This document shows positions 24,595 to 32,000 of a stretch of 32,000 nucleotides of DNA, one piece after another. The DNA lies in assembly GCA_013141415.1 (NCBI GenBank), contig JABFQY010000003.1:239729-271728 (forward strand), given 5' to 3'. Every line of letters starts with the position of its first letter. Within the stretch, counting starts at the first letter, position 1. The notes under the pieces are model-generated. The model was not told the origin of the DNA. It saw only the letters and a list, made by a program, of their open reading frames with translations, and did not search any database. Both the position numbers and the translations under genes were made by a program. This DNA comes from Kiritimatiellaceae bacterium (GTDB lineage Bacteria; Verrucomicrobiota; Kiritimatiellia; Kiritimatiellales; Tichowtungiaceae).

Positions 24595-25764
24595 ATGACC
24601 GACCGTAAAAAAATTGTCTGCTACGACGACAACCCCGATTACGGCGGACATCAGATTATGGCCTGTCTCGCTGTTGAAGGGCTCGCTAAATCCGCTGCAT
24701 GGCAACCGACATTCTTTTGCAGCCCGACGAACATTCGGCTCAACAAGCGACTCAAGGAAATCCAGACCGGTACCGGCAACCTTGAAATCTGCGAAACACC
24801 GTTCACCACCCGAAAGCTGCAGGGATTACGCAATCGTTTCGCCGTAAAAACGATTGGCGCCCTGCGCGAACGGCTCGAAGCCAAAAATCCAGATGTGCTT
24901 CTCTGTGTACAGGGAGAAATCGAAGACGGATCCCTTGCCTTATGCGCCGCAGAAAAAATGGCCGCGCCGTGTATCAGCTATATTCCTGTTCCGCACCGCA
25001 TGGCACTCATGGGTGCAAAACTCGGCGCAGTGCGCGACATGCTGAATGCGTACCTTTTCAAAAAACCGGATGGATGGATCACCATCAGCGGCTCGATGAA
25101 AGCACTGCTTGAAGAACGCGGCGCAACTGCACCGATCGAAGTGGTTCATAACGGCATTAATATGAAACGCTTCACGCCGCGTGACAAAACCGCCGCACGT
25201 GCGGCGCTTGGACTTCCGCTGGAAAAAACCATCCTTGGCACAATCGGTCGCATTGAATTCAACCAGAAACAGCAGACCTTCCTTGTCCGCACATTTTTCG
25301 ATCATTTCCAAAACAGTCCGTCGATGCATTTAGTCATCATTGGCGACGGCCCCGACCGCGGACGGCTCGAAGCGCTGATCGGCGAACTGGGTCTGCATAA
25401 ACAAGTCACCCTGCTCCCGTGGCAATCCGACAGTTCCATTGTTTACAGTGCGCTTGATCTTTTGATTATTCCGTCGCGTTTCGAAGGCGTCCCGCTTGTC
25501 ATGCTCGAAGCGCTCGCCTGCGGTACGCCGGTTATCGGCAGTGCCCGCGACGGCATGAAAGATTTGCTTCCCGCCAGCTGGACCTTTGAACACGGGAACA
25601 GTACTGCGCTGGCCGATGTCATCAAATACGTTGTAAAAGACTGGAAAGAGGAACTGCCCGCTCTGCAAACCAGAGTGCGCAATGAATACACCGTCGAAAA
25701 ATTTCAGCAGAATTTTGAAGCGGCGCTCAACCATTTCCTTATAATGGGCCGCCGATGTACCTAG
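24595..25764 (+). CDS. GT-B glycosyltransferase, family 4-like.
   Basis: The C-terminal E-x7-E region is PSRFEGVPLVMLEALACGTPVIGS. Length is about 390 aa. Confidence 0.85.
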   Translation: MTDRKKIVCYDDNPDYGGHQIMACLAVEGLAKSAAWQPTFFCSPTNIRLNKRLKEIQTGTGNLEICETPFTTRKLQGLRNRFAVKTIGALRERLEAKNPDVLLCVQGEIEDGSLALCAAEKMAAPCISYIPVPHRMALMGAKLGAVRDMLNAYLFKKPDGWITISGSMKALLEERGATAPIEVVHNGINMKRFTPRDKTAARAALGLPLEKTILGTIGRIEFNQKQQTFLVRTFFDHFQNSPSMHLVIIGDGPDRGRLEALIGELGLHKQVTLLPWQSDSSIVYSALDLLIIPSRFEGVPLVMLEALACGTPVIGSARDGMKDLLPASWTFEHGNSTALADVIKYVVKDWKEELPALQTRVRNEYTVEKFQQNFEAALNHFLIMGRRCT

Positions 25765-27159: not shown

Positions 27160-28677
27160 TCAGCGCCGGCGATAGACATCCACCTGCGTATAAACCGGCC
27201 CCCACGGGTGCTGTCGAACCGGAAGAATCCGTTCCAGCACAAGCGCCTCATTAAGACGGCTGTAAAGCGGTGCCAGACCCTCATACGGGCTGTGGAAAAC
27301 ATAAACCCGACCCGACACATGTTTCAGTTTTTGCACCAGCACGGAAGCTTCCTGCGCCAGATCCTGCTGATCATCCAGCAGTTTTTTCGGGTCGATACAG
27401 GAAGGCCGCGTCATCTGAATTTCCGGAAAAACATAGCGCGGGCCGGTTTGGATTTTCATCTGACCGAAATAGTATTCCGCGGTGAAATGACTGATGCCGG
27501 TCTCAACCACCGCATCAGCAGAAGAGATTTCTGTTCCTAGGCGGGCAATCACGTCGCGCTGTTCCGTCAGCTTCCCGGACATCCGCCAGCCGGTGTAACG
27601 CGCCGCACCGGCTAAATTCACCGCGATCAGCAATGCCAGCACCGCCGCCGGGAAACGAAGTTTTGAAACGGCATAACCAGTCAGCGCACAGACCAGCGGC
27701 AGTCCGATTAAATCCATCTTATCAAGCCAGAAAACCGGACGGAACAGCGAGATCAGCACGATCAGTCCGATTGACAGAAAATGCGCCACAAACAGTTCGC
27801 GCGCGTGCCGGTCGTCGGTTGAATTGTTTTTACGCCGCAGGAGCTGAAAGATAACGAACAGCCATAGGATCAGCGCAACGCCCATGCGTAGCAGCTTCAT
27901 CCCGTCAATCGCCAGCATCTGGCTGGAAATACTGAGCAGATAGGCGCCGATGGCACCATGGTACCGCTCCAGCTCCGGAACCGTTTCCGGTGTCGAACCA
28001 CTGAGGTATCCCGCCGCCTGCAATGCCAGCGACGGCAGCCAAAGCACCGCGCCGGCCAGCAAAAAGAGCGAGACCATAAATCCGGCGCGCAGACGGCGGC
28101 GGTAGAATATCGCCAGCACAAAAAACTGCGAGAGCGGCACAAACAGATAAAACGTGTGCGTGTAAAAACCGGCTACCGAAAAAAGCACAAACAGCATTCC
28201 GTCGCGCATTGTTCCGCGCCGCATCGCCCGGTAGAAAAAAAGCCAGGCCAGCACCGTGCACAGCACCATCAGCGAATAGTAACGCAGATTGGTCGCCTGA
28301 TGCAGACACGGCAGGCAGAACGCCGCGCAGGCCGTTCCGGCAATCCGGATACGCGAATCGGAAAAGAGTTCGCGCAAAAGAAACGGGATCACTGCCAGCA
28401 CTGCGCAGTCCAGCAGTACCGTCAGCGCAGTCAGCACATATTCGCCATCGCCGAACAGCCGCATCCAGCCGTGCAGCAGAAAATAAAAAAGCGGACTGCC
28501 GTTATCTGAACTGAGCGTCTGGACAATCTGCAACAGCGACCCCTTGGCCAGTTTGATGGAAAAGGCCTCGTCCAGCCAAACACAGGAAAACGGAAGCTGC
28601 ACAAAGCGAAACGCAACTCCCGTCAGTACCAGCAGAGGAATCAGCCACCGTTCTGCTTTTTTCCAGTCCTTAAGCAT
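27160..28677 (-). CDS. GT-C fold membrane glycosyltransferase (GT39/GT83, ArnT/PMT-like).
   Basis: About 12 TM helices. The first loop LDEAFSIKLAKGS...SDNGSPLFYFLLHGW contains the DE motif, and there is a soluble C-terminal domain. ATG 28677 overlaps the stop of the upstream small gene (ATGCTTAA). Confidence 0.55.
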   Translation of the reverse strand: MLKDWKKAERWLIPLLVLTGVAFRFVQLPFSCVWLDEAFSIKLAKGSLLQIVQTLSSDNGSPLFYFLLHGWMRLFGDGEYVLTALTVLLDCAVLAVIPFLLRELFSDSRIRIAGTACAAFCLPCLHQATNLRYYSLMVLCTVLAWLFFYRAMRRGTMRDGMLFVLFSVAGFYTHTFYLFVPLSQFFVLAIFYRRRLRAGFMVSLFLLAGAVLWLPSLALQAAGYLSGSTPETVPELERYHGAIGAYLLSISSQMLAIDGMKLLRMGVALILWLFVIFQLLRRKNNSTDDRHARELFVAHFLSIGLIVLISLFRPVFWLDKMDLIGLPLVCALTGYAVSKLRFPAAVLALLIAVNLAGAARYTGWRMSGKLTEQRDVIARLGTEISSADAVVETGISHFTAEYYFGQMKIQTGPRYVFPEIQMTRPSCIDPKKLLDDQQDLAQEASVLVQKLKHVSGRVYVFHSPYEGLAPLYSRLNEALVLERILPVRQHPWGPVYTQVDVYRRR

Positions 28678-28930
28678 GATCGAAAACCATCGACTGAACT
28701 TCGACCCCGTCGATGGCCGTGAGCTTCTTTTTGAAAGCGGCAACCTTGGCGTCATCATCCACCATGTCGAGCAGGATCAGTCCGTTAGGAGAACAGGCAC
28801 CCTTACCGGCTTCGTGCAGGCCGAGCCGCGTACGGATCTGACAGCCGAACTCCGTAAATACCTTCTGGATTTCACCTGCGTGCTTCACCCGCTCCGTAAT
28901 ATGAACTCCGACAACAATATGCTTATCCAT
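28670..28930 (-). CDS. Small ACT/ferredoxin-like-fold protein resembling the TM1266 family (putative iron-only hydrogenase system regulator).
   Basis: This 86-aa protein reads MDKHIVVGVHITERVKHAGEIQKVFTEFGCQIRTRLGLHE...LILLDMVDDDAKVAAFKKKLTAIDGVEVQSMVF. Its length and beta-alpha-beta-beta-alpha-beta pattern match my memory of TM1266-type proteins. An [FeFe]-hydrogenase gene lies 2.5 kb away on the same strand. Strong GAGGAGG Shine-Dalgarno. Confidence 0.5.
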   Translation of the reverse strand: MDKHIVVGVHITERVKHAGEIQKVFTEFGCQIRTRLGLHEAGKGACSPNGLILLDMVDDDAKVAAFKKKLTAIDGVEVQSMVFDHA

Positions 28931-29064
28931 AATATCCTCCTCGATTGCAGGGAGTTTTAGCGGATTCTCTCAAGGGTTGGAAGCCGGACGATTACTTTTC
29001 CAATCGTTTAAAAATTCTCGCGCAAAGCCGCCAAGGCGCTAAGAAGTTTCAATGGTTTGGAAAA

Positions 29065-29424
29065 TCACCGAAGCAGACGCTGAATCTGAACCAACAAACC
29101 GGGCGCGTCTTTCCCCTGAGCAAATCCGGACAAGGCCTCTTTCGCCGCGATGATCTCTGCGTTCAGGATCTCTTTTTTATCCGCCAAAAATTCATCCAGC
29201 TCTGCCGACGAAAACGAATAGCCGAACAGCCGCAACTCCTCGCGTAACTTTGACAAAAACTCCGCAAGGGAAAGTTCCTCGGCGTACCCCGTGATGATTT
29301 GGAACAGGATGTATTCGGCGACCCGCTCATCGCCGTTCAAATGATTTTTAAAACCGGTGTAGTCAAACCGCCGTTTGGCACTCTCCGTAATGGTGCTCCA
29401 CACAATATCCTCAGCTTGCCTCAT
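29065..29424 (-). CDS. Hypothetical 119-aa all-helical cytoplasmic protein.
   Basis: ORF with native GC (55-63% in sampled lines) and a GGGGATGA Shine-Dalgarno-like sequence. I recognise no motif. Confidence 0.5.
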   Translation of the reverse strand: MRQAEDIVWSTITESAKRRFDYTGFKNHLNGDERVAEYILFQIITGYAEELSLAEFLSKLREELRLFGYSFSSAELDEFLADKKEILNAEIIAAKEALSGFAQGKDAPGLLVQIQRLLR

Positions 29425-29509
29425 CGTCAGATCATCCCCTGTTCAGCGATACACCGAATCGCCCCGCCAAAAATTACGAGGTTAGGAGTGACCCCGGTTT
29501 CGGTTATTT

Positions 29510-30004
29510 CTATTCCTTATTTAAAATGGCTTCGACCCGGCTCCGAATGTAGTTCGTCTGCTTTCGATAGGAGTAAATAAACAGCACCAGCAGGCCAACC
29601 AGTCCAAGCAGATATTTGTGAGTGGTAAACCAGTTCCATTTTGTCTCTATGGAGTTAAGTACCATGCTAAAAAGCAGCAGTACAAACATCGCAACTAAAG
29701 TCCGGTAGGTGTTGTTCACCTCAGACAGTACTTCGATTTTTTGGTCGGCGGCAGCGGCTTTGACAAAAGCCTTGTATGGCGCGAATCGGAGAAATTTGAT
29801 CCATTTAAAAACCGGCTCAACAAAAAGCGAACCAACACGACTGATCAACATTCCAACGAAATAGTAAAAAAATGCACCCACAAGGATGTTTTCTTGAATC
29901 ATGTTGTACCCCGTTACTTTGCGGAGCAACACCACGAACACTATTCCCGGAAGCAAATAGTTGAACAAATTGTACGATGACAACTTGCTGATCAACTCAC
30001 TCAT
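29510..30004 (-). CDS. Small 4-TM membrane protein (164 aa); partner of the MBL hydrolase gene.
   Basis: ATG 30004 is preceded by TAAGGAGGCGGTT, and this Shine-Dalgarno overlaps the stop of the upstream gene. Hydrophobic helices: NLFNYLLPGIVFVVLL, ILVGAFFYYFVGMLISRVGSLFV, TLVAMFVLLLFSMVLNSI and YLLGLVGLLVLFIYSY, with a basic amphipathic linker between helices 2 and 3. Low GC. Confidence 0.7.
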   Translation of the reverse strand: MSELISKLSSYNLFNYLLPGIVFVVLLRKVTGYNMIQENILVGAFFYYFVGMLISRVGSLFVEPVFKWIKFLRFAPYKAFVKAAAADQKIEVLSEVNNTYRTLVAMFVLLLFSMVLNSIETKWNWFTTHKYLLGLVGLLVLFIYSYRKQTNYIRSRVEAILNKE

Positions 30005-30014
30005 AACCGCCTCC

Positions 30015-31067
30015 TTATTCTTCAACCATCTCAGAGAAGCTCATCTCTTGCGCTGTAGAGTAGCCTGCTCTTTCTGGCGCCTTATACGGCTGGCGTAGGC
30101 TTTGTCCCTTGGTCGAATAGACTTTCATGTTTCGCCGGATACAAGCATTTACCACTTTCTTCGCAGGGTGCTTTTCTGATTCTTTTGCCGCAGATATAAA
30201 AGCTACACTGGCTTTGATTCTATTCAATATAGATGGGGATATGTTTCTCTTACTCCCATGATGGGGCACTTGGAATAAGCTTATTTTCTCAAGACTGATG
30301 CTCTTTTGATCTGCGTGATAGATCGCATTTTTCATGGCGGGAATCCCGGCATCGCCTGTTAGCAGAATGCGCTCCCCGTCAAACTCTAATAGCGTAACAA
30401 CACTTGAATTATTTTCAGCAGACGTCTCTCCGGATTCATCCAACGTTTCAATATGCAACGCTTCCTTCACCCAATTAACGGCTTCTCTAAGCCCCGCTGA
30501 AAAGGTTTCTGTGGCCGATTTTGCTTCGGGACTTTTTGCAAAACTAGGAATCAGTGAAACATAGGTGCCTTCGCTTGGCCCAAGTATCGTTATTTTAGCT
30601 CCGCCGCCGGTGACGACTTTTCCGGCGAAAGGTTCTTCTATAGGAATATTTTTTTCTTCAGCGATTTCTTGTAGCTCATGAGCAAAGTTGTAAGCCTGTC
30701 TAAGTCGCTCCTCTAAACTGTCATTTGTTATTCTACCGTCTTTAAACATGTGTAGAATTTCATCCGAACGATCCCAAGGCTGATGCATCCACAACCCACC
30801 AACGCCAAGTTCGTTTAATACAACACGCAATCCTGACGAGTGATCACCATCGGGATGAGTGCAGATGACTAAGTTCACAAAGGTTGTTTTGTATGTTTCC
30901 TTAATCAGCTTTACCAGCGCATCGCCAGACTCTGTAGTTCCGCCGTCTATCACTGCAACATATTGTTTGCTGGCATCTGAAAAATCGCCCCATCGGACAG
31001 CAATGGCATCTCCGCTTTTTTCTCCATTCCCAACCGCTAAGAAATCTACTTCAAGACTATTGCTCAT
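30015..31067 (-). CDS. Standalone ComEC-type (COG2333-like) metallo-beta-lactamase-fold hydrolase; putative nuclease.
   Basis: FLAVGNGEKSGDAI...VAVIDGG...LVICTHPDGDHSSGL (H-x-D-x-DH metal motif), ENNSSVVTLLEFDGERILLTGDAG, FQVPHHGSKRN and AFISAAKESEKHPAKKVVNACIRRNMKVYST. The order and spacing of blocks match the C-terminal MBL domain of ComEC/Rec2. Strong GAAGGAGG Shine-Dalgarno. Low GC. Confidence 0.75.
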   Translation of the reverse strand: MSNSLEVDFLAVGNGEKSGDAIAVRWGDFSDASKQYVAVIDGGTTESGDALVKLIKETYKTTFVNLVICTHPDGDHSSGLRVVLNELGVGGLWMHQPWDRSDEILHMFKDGRITNDSLEERLRQAYNFAHELQEIAEEKNIPIEEPFAGKVVTGGGAKITILGPSEGTYVSLIPSFAKSPEAKSATETFSAGLREAVNWVKEALHIETLDESGETSAENNSSVVTLLEFDGERILLTGDAGIPAMKNAIYHADQKSISLEKISLFQVPHHGSKRNISPSILNRIKASVAFISAAKESEKHPAKKVVNACIRRNMKVYSTKGQSLRQPYKAPERAGYSTAQEMSFSEMVEE

Positions 31068-31346
31068 TTCAGACCTCCTTCACTGATCACATGGTAATTT
31101 TCATCACATCAACCTTCCCTATCATGGCTGTGGTGCCGAAGGCGTTGCGGCGCTTCCAACTCAACACGGCGGCGCGAAAAACTTGATGACTTTTACCGGA
31201 TTGTTCAAAGGGCAGGAAGCGTTAAAGACAGGGATCAGCGGTCAGATGTCGGAGGTCCGCATTCCAAATCTTGTAAAAAATCCGACCAACTCTTCCAAAG
31301 CTTGGAAACTTCCGTGCTTTCTGTGTATTCCGTGGTTAAAAATCCC

Positions 31347-31377
31347 AATAAAAAACCCCCACCATTTCCGGCAGGGG
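31347..31377 (-). terminator. Rho-independent terminator of the [FeFe]-hydrogenase gene.
   Basis: Minus-strand RNA: CCCCUGCC GGAAAU GGUGGGGG (8-bp stem including two G-U pairs), followed directly by UUUUUUAUU. It lies 22 nt after the TAG at 31399-31401. On the plus strand the same stem has A-C mismatches, so the structure is strand-specific. Confidence 0.7.
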
Positions 31378-31398
31378 CTCTTTTTGGGCGGCGAATCT

Positions 31399-32000
31399 CT
31401 ACAGCGCCGGTTTGTGCTTATACTTCGTGTGCAGCAGGTGATGCGATTTTTCGCCGAGCGGCGCGCCAAGGAATTCTTTATAGAGCTGCTGGACGGCTTC
31501 GTTTTCGTGCGATTTGCGCAGCGCCTTGCCTTCGTCTTCGGCATAGATGGCACCGATACGCTTCATGCGCACCGAGTCATCCGTCAATCGCGGCTGTCCG
31601 CCGCCGCCGATACACCCGCCGGGACAGGTCATGACTTCGATGAAGTGATAGCTCTTTTCGCCGCGCTTAATGCTTTCAAGCAACCGGCGGACATTGGCCA
31701 GTCCGTGGGCGACCGCCAGCTTCACTTCAACACCTTCGAGGAACGACCACGCCGGAACAGTGCCGGTTATAACGACAGAAGCTTCTTTGATTCCTTCGAG
31801 TCCGGCGACCGGCTTGACGTGCAGATTTTCCATCGGCAACGTGCGTCCGGTGACGATTTCGTAAGCCGTCCGCAAGGCCGCTTCCATGACGCCGCCGGTG
31901 TTGGCAAAAATATCCGCCGCGCCGGAGCCGAGTCCAAGCGGGGCATCCATTTTTTCGTCTTCGAGCGACATGAAGTCAATCCCGGCCTCTTTAATCATCC
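31399..32000 (-). CDS. hydA: [FeFe]-hydrogenase catalytic subunit, C-terminal part. The 5' end lies outside the window.
   Basis: H-cluster motif MTCPGGCIGGGGQP, upstream ANTGGVMEAALRTAYE, and a C-terminal small-subunit-like tail (RIGAIYAEDEGKALRKSHENEAV..LY.EFLG.PLGEKSHHLLHT.Y). Confidence 0.9.
   Translation of the reverse strand, partial: MIKEAGIDFMSLEDEKMDAPLGLGSGAADIFANTGGVMEAALRTAYEIVTGRTLPMENLHVKPVAGLEGIKEASVVITGTVPAWSFLEGVEVKLAVAHGLANVRRLLESIKRGEKSYHFIEVMTCPGGCIGGGGQPRLTDDSVRMKRIGAIYAEDEGKALRKSHENEAVQQLYKEFLGAPLGEKSHHLLHTKYKHKPAL

What the first reader, a model, noticed from the sequence alone, without database searches (positions are those of the whole stretch)
29425..31346. Low-GC two-gene cassette (ComEC-type MBL hydrolase + 4-TM protein) between hydA and its putative regulator: candidate undescribed defence/conflict system
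A ~1.6-kb block lies between the hydrogenase terminator (31347-31377) and a native-GC 119-aa gene, and its composition departs sharply from the rest of the window. Hand counts of 60-nt lines inside it give 22/60 (29641-29700), 24/60 (30241-30300) and 28/60 (30601-30660) G+C. Flanking genes give 37/60 (27181-27240) and 38/60 (29101-29160). GC rises back to flank level near 31130. The block holds exactly two co-oriented genes, each with a canonical AAGGAGG-type Shine-Dalgarno. The TAA of gene 1 (30015-30017) is embedded in the Shine-Dalgarno of gene 2 and the gap is 10 nt, so the two are translationally linked. Gene 1 is a standalone MBL-fold enzyme of the ComEC C-terminal type, a domain generally thought to be a DNA nuclease. 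Gene 2 is a 164-aa protein with 4 TM helices. A predicted nuclease/hydrolase paired with a small multi-TM partner on a compositionally foreign mini-island is the architecture seen in many abortive-infection-style antiphage systems. I cannot place this pair in any named system from memory. I only recall loosely analogous hydrolase-plus-TM pairs from phage-satellite hotspots, and I cannot assert homology. The block contains no integrase, tRNA or convincing flanking direct repeats.
Basis: partly seen in the sequence, partly recalled or inferred. Interest (0 to 1): 0.72.

Follow-up and report, generated by a model that had tools for sequence, protein, structure and literature searches.

The report
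Catalogued MBL nuclease plus membrane-protein defence candidate
A horizontally acquired two-gene cassette, a ComEC-like metallo-hydrolase plus a small four-helix membrane protein, sits in a variable slot next to the hydrogenase gene of a Kiritimatiellaceae bacterium. It belongs to the PADLOC anti-phage candidate family PDC-M48, so it is not undescribed, but nobody has tested what it does.

Summary
Two intact, translationally coupled minus-strand genes form a low-GC block (0.445 against 0.548±0.016, z −6.5) between hydA and a conserved 119-aa gene. They are an MBL hydrolase (31067-30015) and a 164-aa 4-TM protein (30004-29510).

The pair is not undescribed. Both proteins match PADLOC-DB models PDC-M48B (E 3e-98) and PDC-M48A (E 4e-65) over their full length. 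PDC-M48 is an untested "phage defence candidate" from Payne et al. 2024.

The defence reading is well supported by context:
- The closest homologues (91% and 83% identity) lie between hsdS and hsdR of type I R-M systems.
- The window cassette still carries a decayed hsdS 3' end.
- Kiritimatiellales relatives hold other cargo at the same hydA|p119 junction, including IetAS and a helicase-nuclease with a toxin-antitoxin pair.
- Homologous pairs sit in the P2-phage gpA–gpQ defence hotspot of E. coli, in other IMG/VR viral contigs and (the MBL) on plasmids.

The MBL model best matches the ComEC nuclease domain. Its partner is nearly always a multi-TM protein, but the partner family is swapped repeatedly among unrelated 4-TM families.

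My best mechanism is a membrane-associated DNase module, and this is inferred, not shown. Verdict: new member of a known, unvalidated candidate family. Interest is moderate.

The parts
30015..31067 (-). MBL-fold metallo-hydrolase, 350 aa (PDC-M48B type, ComEC-C-terminal-like); predicted metal-dependent nuclease
   Evidence: PADLOC PDLC04676 E 3e-98, residues 1-350 on 1-357/357. Pfam Lactamase_B 3e-8. Sub-threshold NCBIfam hits to Avs1a, ComEC_Rec2 (C-terminal part only) and 6A-MBL. AF2 pLDDT 90.4. Best PDB hit 9ic4, ComEC beta-lactamase-like domain, E 4e-16, TM 0.79. Invariant H71 D73 D75 H76 D239 H269 H270. dN/dS 0.08-0.11 against L001/L003.
29510..30004 (-). 164-aa four-TM partner protein (PDC-M48A type); possible distant Csx27-like relative
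   Evidence: PADLOC PDLC04670 E 4e-65, 1-160/164. AF2 pLDDT 87.8 with helices 2-31, 40-68, 77-86, 89-122 and 124-163. No PDB analogue. Basic residues concentrate in loop 61-102 and tail 147-164. Invariant motifs YN.FN.LPG, SR.G....EP..K, E.NN.YRT and YRKQT.Y...R. Csx27 model hit by 14 of 37 family members, best E 3.7e-4. 100% identical to an NCBI MAG protein from a Kiritimatiellaceae bacterium. dN/dS 0.11-0.15.
30005..30024 (-). Coupling junction: MBL stop codon TAA (30017-30015) embedded in the TAAGGAGG Shine-Dalgarno of the TM gene; 10-nt gap
   Evidence: Read directly from the sequence.
31068..31086 (-). Shine-Dalgarno (GAAGGAGG) and spacer upstream of the MBL start; conserved in the R-M-embedded copies
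31087..31150 (-). Decayed fossil of a type I R-M hsdS 3' end carried along with the cassette
   Evidence: Aligns in register with the last codons of hsdS in L001/L003. The window reads RRNAFGTTAMIGKVDVMKITM* against EYRTALITAAVTGKIDVRGITT*, with the stop at the equivalent position. It is part of the 1648-nt, 84%-identical DNA match to L001.
31161..31278 (-). Conserved host intergenic element immediately upstream of the cargo slot (left border of the hotspot)
   Evidence: 88% identical to L011 2127-2244 and also present in L006; cargo begins just after it in all three. Single copy in the window. Not a stable RNA fold, z +1.65. No Rfam family at threshold.
29425..29484 (-). Right border of the cargo slot: host sequence upstream of the 119-aa gene, where homology with relatives resumes
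   Evidence: blastn homology with L011 starts at 29484 and with L007 at 29472.
29065..29424 (-). Conserved 119-aa flanking gene (p119), host-type GC, no known family; right anchor of the hotspot, not part of the cassette
   Evidence: 64-84% identical in seven Kiritimatiellales/'Verrucomicrobiota' MAG loci. No Pfam, NCBIfam or PADLOC hit. Unrelated to the genes that follow the pair in L001.
31399..31998 (-). 3' part of hydA ([FeFe] hydrogenase, group A6-like), left anchor of the hotspot
   Evidence: NCBIfam FeFe_hydrog_A6 E 2e-77. 95-97% aa identity in L007, L011 and L012.

Best explanation
The block is a horizontally acquired two-gene anti-phage/anti-MGE candidate module of the PADLOC PDC-M48 family. 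It is lodged in a variable cargo slot between hydA and a conserved 119-aa gene of a Kiritimatiellaceae genome.

Shown:
- Family membership of both genes.
- Foreign origin, including a fossil hsdS 3' end that indicates an ancestor embedded in a type I R-M operon.
- Purifying selection on both genes.
- Near-obligate adjacency of this MBL family to a small multi-TM protein.
- Recurrent location in defence contexts.

Inferred mechanism: the cytoplasmic MBL enzyme is a metal-dependent DNase of the ComEC-nuclease type. It works with, and is probably docked on, the conserved basic cytoplasmic loop and tail of the 4-TM partner. On infection the complex degrades DNA at or near the inner membrane. This would either destroy incoming DNA directly or act as an abortive-infection effector. 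The TM protein would supply localisation, gating or triggering.
For: Membership: PDC-M48B E 3e-98 and PDC-M48A E 4e-65, both full length. PDC-M48 is listed as a candidate in Payne et al. supplement file 8.

Foreign origin:
- GC z −6.5.
- 84% nt identity over 1648 nt to the R-M-embedded copy L001.
- hsdS 3' fossil.
- In L003-L005 the cassette is flanked by a 76-nt direct repeat of the hsdS 3' end.

Hotspot: the same hydA|p119 junction carries other cargo in relatives.
- L011: IetA/IetS (PADLOC 5e-71 and 2.5e-61).
- L006: an SF1 helicase-MTES nuclease (PDC-S37 1e-58) plus a UPF0175/DUF3368 TA pair (PDC-S70 8e-48).
- L007: a glycoamylase.
- L012: an unknown 322-aa gene.

Defence context elsewhere:
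- Between hsdS and hsdR.
- Among 117 neighbouring proteins from 24 long loci, 6 are HsdS, 5 HsdM, 3-4 HsdR-type, 5 ThiF, 4 JAB and 3 E2.
- The P2 gpA-gpQ hotspot in E. coli phages and 45 of 5426 E. coli genomes.
- 39 IMG/VR loci and 76 plasmid records for the MBL.

Pairing:
- 36 of 39 viral loci and 71 of 76 metagenome loci have an adjacent multi-TM gene.
- 7 of 9 TM-164 loci have an adjacent MBL hit.

Enzyme:
- The AF2 model best matches the ComEC nuclease domain.
- Catalytic residues are invariant.
- There are profile hits to MBL components of Lamassu (LmuA), DRT and Avs1 systems.
- A protease-linked defence MBL is a Zn-dependent dsDNA nuclease (PMC12642450).
- ComEC nuclease activity is cited there (Silale 2021).

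Selection: dN/dS 0.08-0.15.
Against: - No experiment exists for PDC-M48 in the searched literature.
- Nuclease activity, substrate and any MBL-TM contact are unproven. No complex model could be run.
- The second-best structural match is a phosphorylcholine esterase (Pce/CbpE), so a non-nucleic-acid phosphodiester substrate is not excluded.
- In many E. coli prophages the two genes are convergent rather than co-transcribed, so translational coupling is not a family feature.
- The window holds no other defence gene.
- One relative carries a metabolic gene in the slot (L007), so the slot is not defence-only.
Confidence: 0.6

Rival explanations
1. Abortive-infection pair in which the TM protein is the killing effector, a membrane pore or depolarising channel as with Csx28 and other TM effectors. 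The MBL enzyme would be the sensor or regulator, for example by hydrolysing a nucleotide or other phosphodiester signal.
For: - TM proteins are generally read as suicide effectors in defence systems (Rousset 2022 text).
- There is a weak Csx27/tm_4 relationship.
- The MBL fold also includes phosphodiesterases such as Pce.
- The TM partner is swapped among unrelated 4-TM families, as effectors often are.
Against: - The MBL is closest to the ComEC nuclease domain.
- It also matches MBL components of other defence systems, and a protease-associated defence MBL was shown to be the killing dsDNA nuclease.
- No nucleotide-synthesising partner is present.
- The Csx27 similarity is marginal for this family (hhalign probability 3% to the Csx27-like L062 protein).
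Confidence: 0.2
2. Not immunity. The pair would be a DNA-uptake or DNA-processing accessory (a minimal competence-like module), or an addiction/selfish cassette that simply hitch-hikes in R-M operons and phage hotspots.
For: - ComEC-type MBL.
- RefSeq annotates the E. coli homologue as 'ComEC/Rec2 family competence protein'.
- Csx27-family proteins were reported next to natural-transformation genes (Makarova 2019, as cited).
- The cassette is mobile and low-GC wherever it was examined: the window, L001 and L003.
Against: - The TM protein has no Pfam hit, so no Competence-domain match, and the MBL matches only the C-terminal part of ComEC models.
- No other competence genes are nearby.
- The systematic placement inside R-M operons and phage defence hotspots is the signature of defence cargo.
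- dN/dS of about 0.1 shows a selected function.
Confidence: 0.12
3. The cassette is an inactive passenger in this genome. It would depend on a type I R-M partner that is absent here, in the way PrrC depends on EcoprrI.
For: - The closest relatives are embedded in type I R-M operons.
- The window copy has only a decayed hsdS stub.
- No R-M gene was found among the window ORFs scanned.
Against: - Both ORFs are intact with all invariant residues and with preserved Shine-Dalgarno sequences.
- dN/dS is 0.08-0.15.
- Homologous pairs occur without R-M genes in P2 phages.
- The rest of the 630-kb contig was not seen, so an R-M system elsewhere cannot be excluded.
Confidence: 0.08

Closest known systems
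PADLOC PDC-M48 (phage defence candidate, Payne et al. 2024, guilt-by-embedding in BREX/DISARM/type I R-M)
   Same: Both proteins match the PDC-M48A and PDC-M48B models over their full length with very strong E-values. The closest homologues are embedded in type I R-M systems, exactly as in the discovery approach.
   Different: Here the pair stands alone in a chromosomal hotspot without R-M genes. Gene order is MBL then TM, whereas the supplement writes FAM_01875>>FAM_00178. The candidate itself is untested.
ComEC/Rec2 C-terminal MBL nuclease domain (natural transformation)
   Same: It is the best structural match (9ic4, E 4e-16, TM 0.79). NCBIfam ComEC_Rec2 matches at positions 540-660 of 663. 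Both share the metal-binding HxDxDH-type and HH motifs and an association with a membrane component.
   Different: The window protein is a stand-alone soluble protein. It has no OB-fold or Competence channel domain, and no N-terminal hydrophobic stretch is evident in its sequence. Scores are far below the family cut-off (57.7 against 190 bits). The TM partner has no Pfam hit, so no Competence-domain match.
MBL components of defence systems: LmuA-MBL (Lamassu), RT-associated MBL (DRT), Avs1a, protease-activated MBL nucleases, 6A-MBL
   Same: Profile similarity: LmuA 2e-35, RTasMBL 2e-26, Avs1a 2e-17. A protease-associated member is a Zn-dependent dsDNA nuclease (PMC12642450).
   Different: The partners differ (SMC ATPase, RT, STAND/protease, E1/E2/JAB). 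NCBIfam scores are far below cut-offs (Avs1a 76 against 420; 6A-MBL 35 against 220). No protease or STAND gene is present here.
Csx27 / tm_4 (type VI-B1 CRISPR accessory 4-TM proteins; Csx27-like family of Makarova et al. 2019)
   Same: Small 4-TM proteins. The Csx27 model is hit weakly by the window protein (E 0.0019) and by 14 of 37 family members. One alternative MBL partner (L062) hits Csx27 at 1.6e-8. [quoted passage not shown] E1/E2/JAB and R-M genes are seen among neighbours here.
   Different: The similarity is marginal (hhalign probability 3% to L062). There is no Cas13b or CRISPR array. The 2019 paper could not be read here.
Rousset et al. 2022 'HAD-like hydrolase + transmembrane protein' (P4 hotspot, anti-T7)
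   Same: Two-gene hydrolase plus TM architecture in a phage or satellite hotspot.
   Different: That hydrolase is HAD-like, not MBL. In the PADLOC scan at E up to 1, the TM protein matched only PDC-M48A and Csx27, and the MBL matched only other MBL-type models. The resemblance is analogy, not homology.
PrrC / other genes embedded between hsdS and hsdR of type I R-M
   Same: The ancestral position of the cassette is between hsdS and hsdR.
   Different: The proteins are unrelated. Any dependence on the R-M complex is unknown, and the pair occurs without R-M genes here and in P2 phages.

Membership tests
PADLOC PDC-M48 | Protein matching a PDC-M48B (MBL) HMM | tested here: met
   PDLC04676 E 3.1e-98, 326.9 bits, residues 1-350 on model positions 1-357/357.
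PADLOC PDC-M48 | Protein matching a PDC-M48A (4-TM) HMM | tested here: met
   PDLC04670 E 3.3e-65, 1-160 on 1-160/164. All 37 aligned homologues also match.
PADLOC PDC-M48 | The two genes adjacent in one locus | tested here: met
   10-nt gap, same strand. PADLOC's own system rules could not be run.
PADLOC PDC-M48 | Anti-phage activity | not testable with these tools
   PDCs are untested candidates. No paper in the library mentions PDC-M48.
ComEC/Rec2 (split form) | MBL domain of ComEC type | tested here: met
   Foldseek top hit 9ic4. TIGR00361 match to positions 540-660/663, 57.7 bits, below the 190-bit cut-off.
ComEC/Rec2 (split form) | Competence (channel) transmembrane domain and OB-fold N-domain | tested here: not met
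   The TM protein has no Pfam or NCBIfam hit at E up to 0.1. It has 4 TM helices in 164 aa.
Csx27-like 4-TM family | Significant profile match to Csx27 | tested here: inconclusive
   E 0.0019 for the window protein. 14 of 37 relatives hit at E up to 0.01, best 3.7e-4. hhalign to the Csx27-like L062 protein gives probability 3%.
Avs1 (AVAST type 1) Avs1a | Score at or above the NCBIfam equivalog cut-off, and an adjacent STAND NTPase | tested here: not met
   76 bits against a cut-off of 420. No STAND gene was found among the window ORFs scanned.
6A-MBL system | 6A-MBL enzyme equivalog plus E1/E2/JAB genes | tested here: not met
   35 bits against a cut-off of 220. No E1/E2/JAB genes were found in the window, although such genes neighbour some family members elsewhere.
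Rst Hydrolase-TM (Rousset 2022) | HAD-like hydrolase component | tested here: not met
   The window enzyme is MBL fold. The Rousset system is a HAD-like hydrolase.
Chromosomal defence hotspot (core-gene-flanked variable slot) | Same conserved flanks with different, often defence, cargo in related genomes | tested here: met
   Four relatives share hydA and p119 flanks with four different cargos, two of them known or candidate defence systems.

The most novel reading that the evidence does not exclude
The MBL + 4-TM module would be an 'entry-point' nuclease. A ComEC-type DNase is held at the inner membrane by an interchangeable small channel or anchor protein and destroys invading DNA as it crosses the membrane. 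This would be a defence derived from the logic of the DNA-uptake machinery, and it would complement the type I R-M systems in which it is usually nested.

The repeated swapping of the partner among unrelated 4-TM families would then mean the TM module provides the trigger or gate. The hsdS-3'-end repeats would mark a cassette-exchange mechanism that targets R-M operons.
Probability: 0.2. Interest if true: 0.7.

Novelty: new member of a known kind. Interest (0 to 1): 0.4.

Why it matters
The pair is a widespread, purifying-selected and completely uncharacterised candidate immune module. The TM family alone has about 1,165 clusters at 50% identity. The pair occurs in Bacteroidota, Kiritimatiellota and Proteobacteria, on phages and on plasmids.

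This work adds four things beyond the catalogue entry:
- PDC-M48 as modelled in PADLOC captures only one of at least three or four unrelated 4-TM partner families of the same MBL clade. Most MBL + TM pairs are therefore invisible to current defence finders.
- E. coli P2-like prophages carry a native homologous pair, which makes direct experiments easy.
- The cassette carries hsdS 3'-end repeats, which hints at how embedded genes move between R-M operons.
- A new core-gene-flanked defence slot (hydA|p119) exists in Kiritimatiellales.

If the DNase-at-the-membrane model holds, it would link competence-type nucleases to immunity.

Tried and rejected
- Exact-sequence look-ups of the window's MBL and 119-aa proteins found nothing. 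Only the TM protein is on record (P0121).
- A literature search for 'PDC-M48' gave 0 papers. Makarova et al. 2019 could not be opened by DOI or PMC id.
- The afdb50 fold library was unavailable. A PDB fold search of the TM model gave only noise, with E above 2.
- Rfam on 28900-31500 gave only a sub-threshold Cyano-2 hit (19.7 against 40 bits), which I dismissed.
- The conserved intergenic element is not a stable RNA and is not repeated in the window.
- There are no direct or inverted repeats around the cassette in the window and no tRNA.
- The 119-aa gene as a third component: rejected. It is unrelated to the genes that follow the pair in L001, and it is conserved in relatives that lack the pair.
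- TM-164 and the commoner ~240-aa partner as homologues: rejected by hhalign, probability 0.5%.
- Rousset's Hydrolase-TM as the same system: rejected, because that hydrolase is HAD-like.
- The first attempt at a neighbour-family census failed on the 50,000-residue limit and was repeated with 117 proteins.
Full report
**1. What is there**

Two complete co-oriented ORFs lie on the minus strand.
- A 350-aa protein runs from ATG 31067 to TAA 30017-30015.
- A 164-aa protein runs from ATG 30004 to the stop at 29512-29510.

The sequence shows GAAGGAGG before the first ATG. The first gene's TAA sits inside TAAGGAGG, 10 nt before the second ATG.

GC is 0.44-0.46 across the block and 0.51-0.59 elsewhere. 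Over the cassette (29503-31150) GC is 0.445. The 558 other windows of the same length give 0.548±0.016 with a minimum of 0.515, so z = −6.5. MBL GC3 is 0.41 against 0.59-0.68 for the other window genes measured.

There is no tRNA in the window. No repeats flank the block.

The other large window ORFs scanned encode housekeeping-type proteins: a GH2-type glycosidase, a fumarase-type lyase, a sulfatase, permeases, LptF/G and glycosyltransferases.

**2. Identity of the genes**

Against PADLOC-DB v2:
- The first protein matches PDC-M48B (PDLC04676, E 3e-98, end to end).
- The second matches PDC-M48A (PDLC04670, E 4e-65, starting at the ATG-30004 methionine).

[quoted passage not shown] That study derived 145 untested 'phage defence candidates' from genes embedded in BREX, DISARM and type I R-M systems and added them to PADLOC. 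No paper in the library mentions PDC-M48 by name. Another study excluded PDCs 'because they are unvalidated'.

So the pair is catalogued but not characterised.

The MBL also hits the MBL components of Lamassu (LmuA, 2e-35), DRT (2e-26) and Avs1a (2e-17). It hits the NCBIfam models for Avs1a, ComEC/Rec2 (C-terminal 120 residues only) and the 6A-MBL enzyme, all far below their cut-offs.

**3. Origin of the block**

A genome scan with the 119-aa neighbour (p119) found seven loci in Kiritimatiellales/'Verrucomicrobiota' MAGs. The TM protein is 100% identical to an NCBI protein of a Kiritimatiellaceae MAG on a 630-kb contig.

In four relatives, hydA (95-97% aa identity where the C-terminal part is present) and p119 (77-84%) flank the same junction. 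None of them has the MBL/TM pair. The cargo differs each time:
- L011: IetA+IetS (PADLOC 5e-71 and 2.5e-61).
- L006: a 1533-aa SF1 helicase with an MTES_1575 nuclease domain (PDC-S37 1e-58; also Hhe/MkoA-like), plus a UPF0175/DUF3368 pair (PDC-S70 8e-48).
- L007: a glycoamylase on the opposite strand.
- L012: an unknown 322-aa gene.

blastn places the borders precisely. Host homology ends at 31161, after a conserved ~120-nt intergenic element shared with L011 and L006. It resumes at 29484. The junction is therefore a core-gene-flanked variable slot that often holds defence cargo.

**4. Where the cassette came from**

The closest MBL homologues are 91% and 83% identical. They lie between hsdS and hsdR of type I R-M operons (L001-L005). 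The TM gene is directly downstream in L001/L002. In L003-L005 it follows an extra 323-aa MBL-like gene.

Window 31150-29503 matches L001 at 84% nucleotide identity over 1648 nt.

The first 64 nt of that match (31150-31087) align in register with the last codons of hsdS. The window reads RRNAFGTTAMIGKVDVMKITM* where L001 reads EYRTALITAAVTGKIDVRGITT*, and the stop codon is at the equivalent position. This is a decayed hsdS stub carried with the cassette.

In L003-L005 the whole MBL–MBL2–TM cassette is bracketed by a 76-nt direct repeat (93% identical) of the hsdS 3' end. This suggests, but does not show, that such cassettes enter R-M operons through the conserved hsdS terminus.

The cassette is lower in GC than its flanks in L001 and L003 as well. 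dN/dS against L001/L003 is 0.08-0.11 for the MBL and 0.11-0.15 for the TM gene, so both genes are under purifying selection.

**5. Do the genes co-occur?**

Yes, with a twist.

Metagenome loci. Of 80 loci for this MBL clade (44-61% identity), 76 have a downstream gene:
- 5 have the 164-aa family.
- 61 have a different ~235-277-aa protein with 3-4 TM segments.
- 4 have a ~210-aa 4-TM family.
- 1 has a 249-aa 4-TM protein that hits Csx27 (1.6e-8).
- 5 have a second MBL.

The ~240-aa partner has no PADLOC hit and no Pfam hit better than E 0.005. It is not detectably homologous to the 164-aa family (hhalign probability 0.5%).

On a neighbour-joining tree of the MBLs the partner types interleave. 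This implies at least five swaps. The Payne supplement also shows FAM_00178 paired with other families below their cut-off.

IMG/VR viral contigs. 36 of 39 MBL-family loci have an adjacent multi-TM partner: 24 of the 164-aa type, 10 of the ~240-aa type and 2 of the ~210-aa type. The order is MBL→TM, TM→MBL or convergent. Of 9 TM-164 loci, 7 have an adjacent MBL hit.

The 164-aa family has 1,165 clusters at 50% identity (E ≤ 1e-3). The listed top 150 are nearly all about 160-180 aa, with no large fusion partners.

**6. Context elsewhere**

I scanned 117 neighbouring proteins from 24 long loci. The commonest families were HsdS (6), HsdM (5), ThiF/E1 (5), Prok-JAB (4), HsdR domains (3-4), Prok-E2_A (3), resolvase (3) and KAP NTPase (2).

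tblastn found the MBL on 76 plasmid records. It also found the MBL in P2-like coliphages (Peduovirus P24E6b; phages D8, 11W, 12W) at 38% identity.

In phage D8 the MBL lies just beyond gpA, with a convergent 162-aa protein that is 37% identical to the window TM protein. This is the gpA–gpQ defence hotspot of Rousset et al. 2022. Their supplementary tables list 'hypothetical + Lactamase_B' loci, but the systems they validated there were others.

This E. coli pair is present in 45 of 5,426 complete genomes. It is annotated 'ComEC/Rec2 family competence protein | hypothetical protein'.

Rousset's 'hydrolase + TM' anti-T7 system is HAD-like, so it is only an analogy.

**7. Structure and mechanism**

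MBL protein. The AF2 model is confident (pLDDT 90.4). Its best PDB match is the ComEC beta-lactamase-like domain 9ic4 (E 4e-16, target TM-score 0.79). The next is the phosphorylcholine esterase Pce, followed by RNase J and CPSF73. H71, D73, D75, H76, D239, H269 and H270 are invariant in 45 homologues. Judged by eye, the N-terminus has no hydrophobic stretch, so I take the protein to be cytoplasmic.

TM protein. The model (pLDDT 87.8) has helices at 2-31, 40-68, 77-86, 89-122 and 124-163. K+R residues concentrate in loop 61-102 (7) and in the C-tail 147-164 (5). By the positive-inside rule this gives an N-in/C-in topology, which is an inference. It puts the invariant motifs SR.G....EP..K, E.NN.YRT and YRKQT.Y...R on the cytoplasmic face, where a soluble partner could dock. 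No solved structure resembles it.

Similarity to Csx27 is marginal. E is 0.0019 for the window protein, and 14 of 37 relatives hit at E ≤ 0.01.

Literature. ComEC's MBL domain is a nuclease (Silale 2021). A protease-associated defence MBL is a Zn-dependent dsDNA nuclease (both from PMC12642450). Csx27 was reported in predicted operons with natural-transformation components and was predicted to form channels for ssDNA (Makarova 2019, as cited in PMC7642515 and PMC11662929).

My best reading is a DNase that works with a membrane partner, either at DNA entry or as an abortive effector. Family membership, context and selection are shown. Enzymatic activity, the MBL–TM interaction, the trigger and the phenotype are all inferred.

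**8. Verdict**

The defence interpretation is well supported by context. The claim of an undescribed system is not supported: this is a new member of PADLOC candidate PDC-M48. It is not a split ComEC, not Avs1, not 6A-MBL and not the Rousset HAD-hydrolase/TM system.

The added findings give it moderate interest as an experimental target, but no categorical novelty. They are the hotspot, the hsdS fossil and repeats, the modular partner swapping, and the native E. coli prophage homologues.

Noticed in passing
window 31161-31278 (-); L011 2127-2244; L006 ~230-354: A ~120-nt intergenic element is conserved (88% identical to L011). It lies just upstream of the cargo slot in the window, L011 and L006, and all three cargos are co-oriented with it. 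It is single copy, is not a stable RNA fold and has no Rfam match. It may be a shared promoter or a recombination border of the hotspot.
   Followed up: partly
L003 9892-9967 and 12549-12624 (same in L004, L005): A 76-nt direct repeat (93% identical) of the hsdS 3' end brackets the embedded MBL–MBL2–TM cassette, leaving a 31-aa hsdS-tail ORF after it. This suggests cassette insertion or exchange through the conserved hsdS terminus.
   Followed up: partly
L003 11064-12035 (also L021, L023, L024, L031, L056): A second, divergent MBL-fold gene (323-365 aa; PDC-M48B model PDLC04673, E 5e-30 for the L003 copy) is inserted directly after the first MBL in some loci. In L003 this gives an MBL–MBL–TM variant.
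   Followed up: partly
L013-L092, gene directly downstream of the MBL (e.g. L013 1681-2397, L044 9123-9854): The commonest partner of this MBL clade is a ~235-277-aa protein with 3-4 TM segments. It has conserved GRDKGK, WGG.PT and ENI.YGFRRN motifs. It has no PADLOC hit and no Pfam hit better than E 0.005, so current defence finders would miss these pairs.
   Followed up: partly
L011 2318-5916; L006 454-5985: Kiritimatiellales relatives carry IetAS at the same hydA|p119 junction, or a 1533-aa SF1 helicase–MTES_1575 nuclease (PDC-S37-like) plus a UPF0175/DUF3368 pair (PDC-S70).
   Followed up: yes
window 28670-28930 (-): An 86-aa gene matches the NCBIfam CPF_0552 family (3e-29, above cut-off) and weakly matches the TM1266-like 'iron-only hydrogenase system regulator' models. 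It is conserved next to p119 in relatives (about 90% identical).
   Followed up: partly
window 31300-31345 (-) and L011/L006 equivalents: A short motif (ACCACGGA…CACAGA.AG.ACGGAAG-like) follows the hydA terminator. A related copy occurs a second time, further downstream in the intergenic region, in L011 and L006. Its nature is unknown.
   Followed up: no
window 24595-25764 (+): A GT4 glycosyltransferase also matches Pfam GT4-conflict ('Family 4 Glycosyltransferase in conflict systems', 3e-11). It sits among O-antigen ligase and ExeA-like ATPase genes and is probably ordinary envelope biosynthesis.
   Followed up: no
L012 4981-5949: A 322-aa cargo gene at the same junction has no Pfam or PADLOC hit and host-like GC (0.56).
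   Followed up: no
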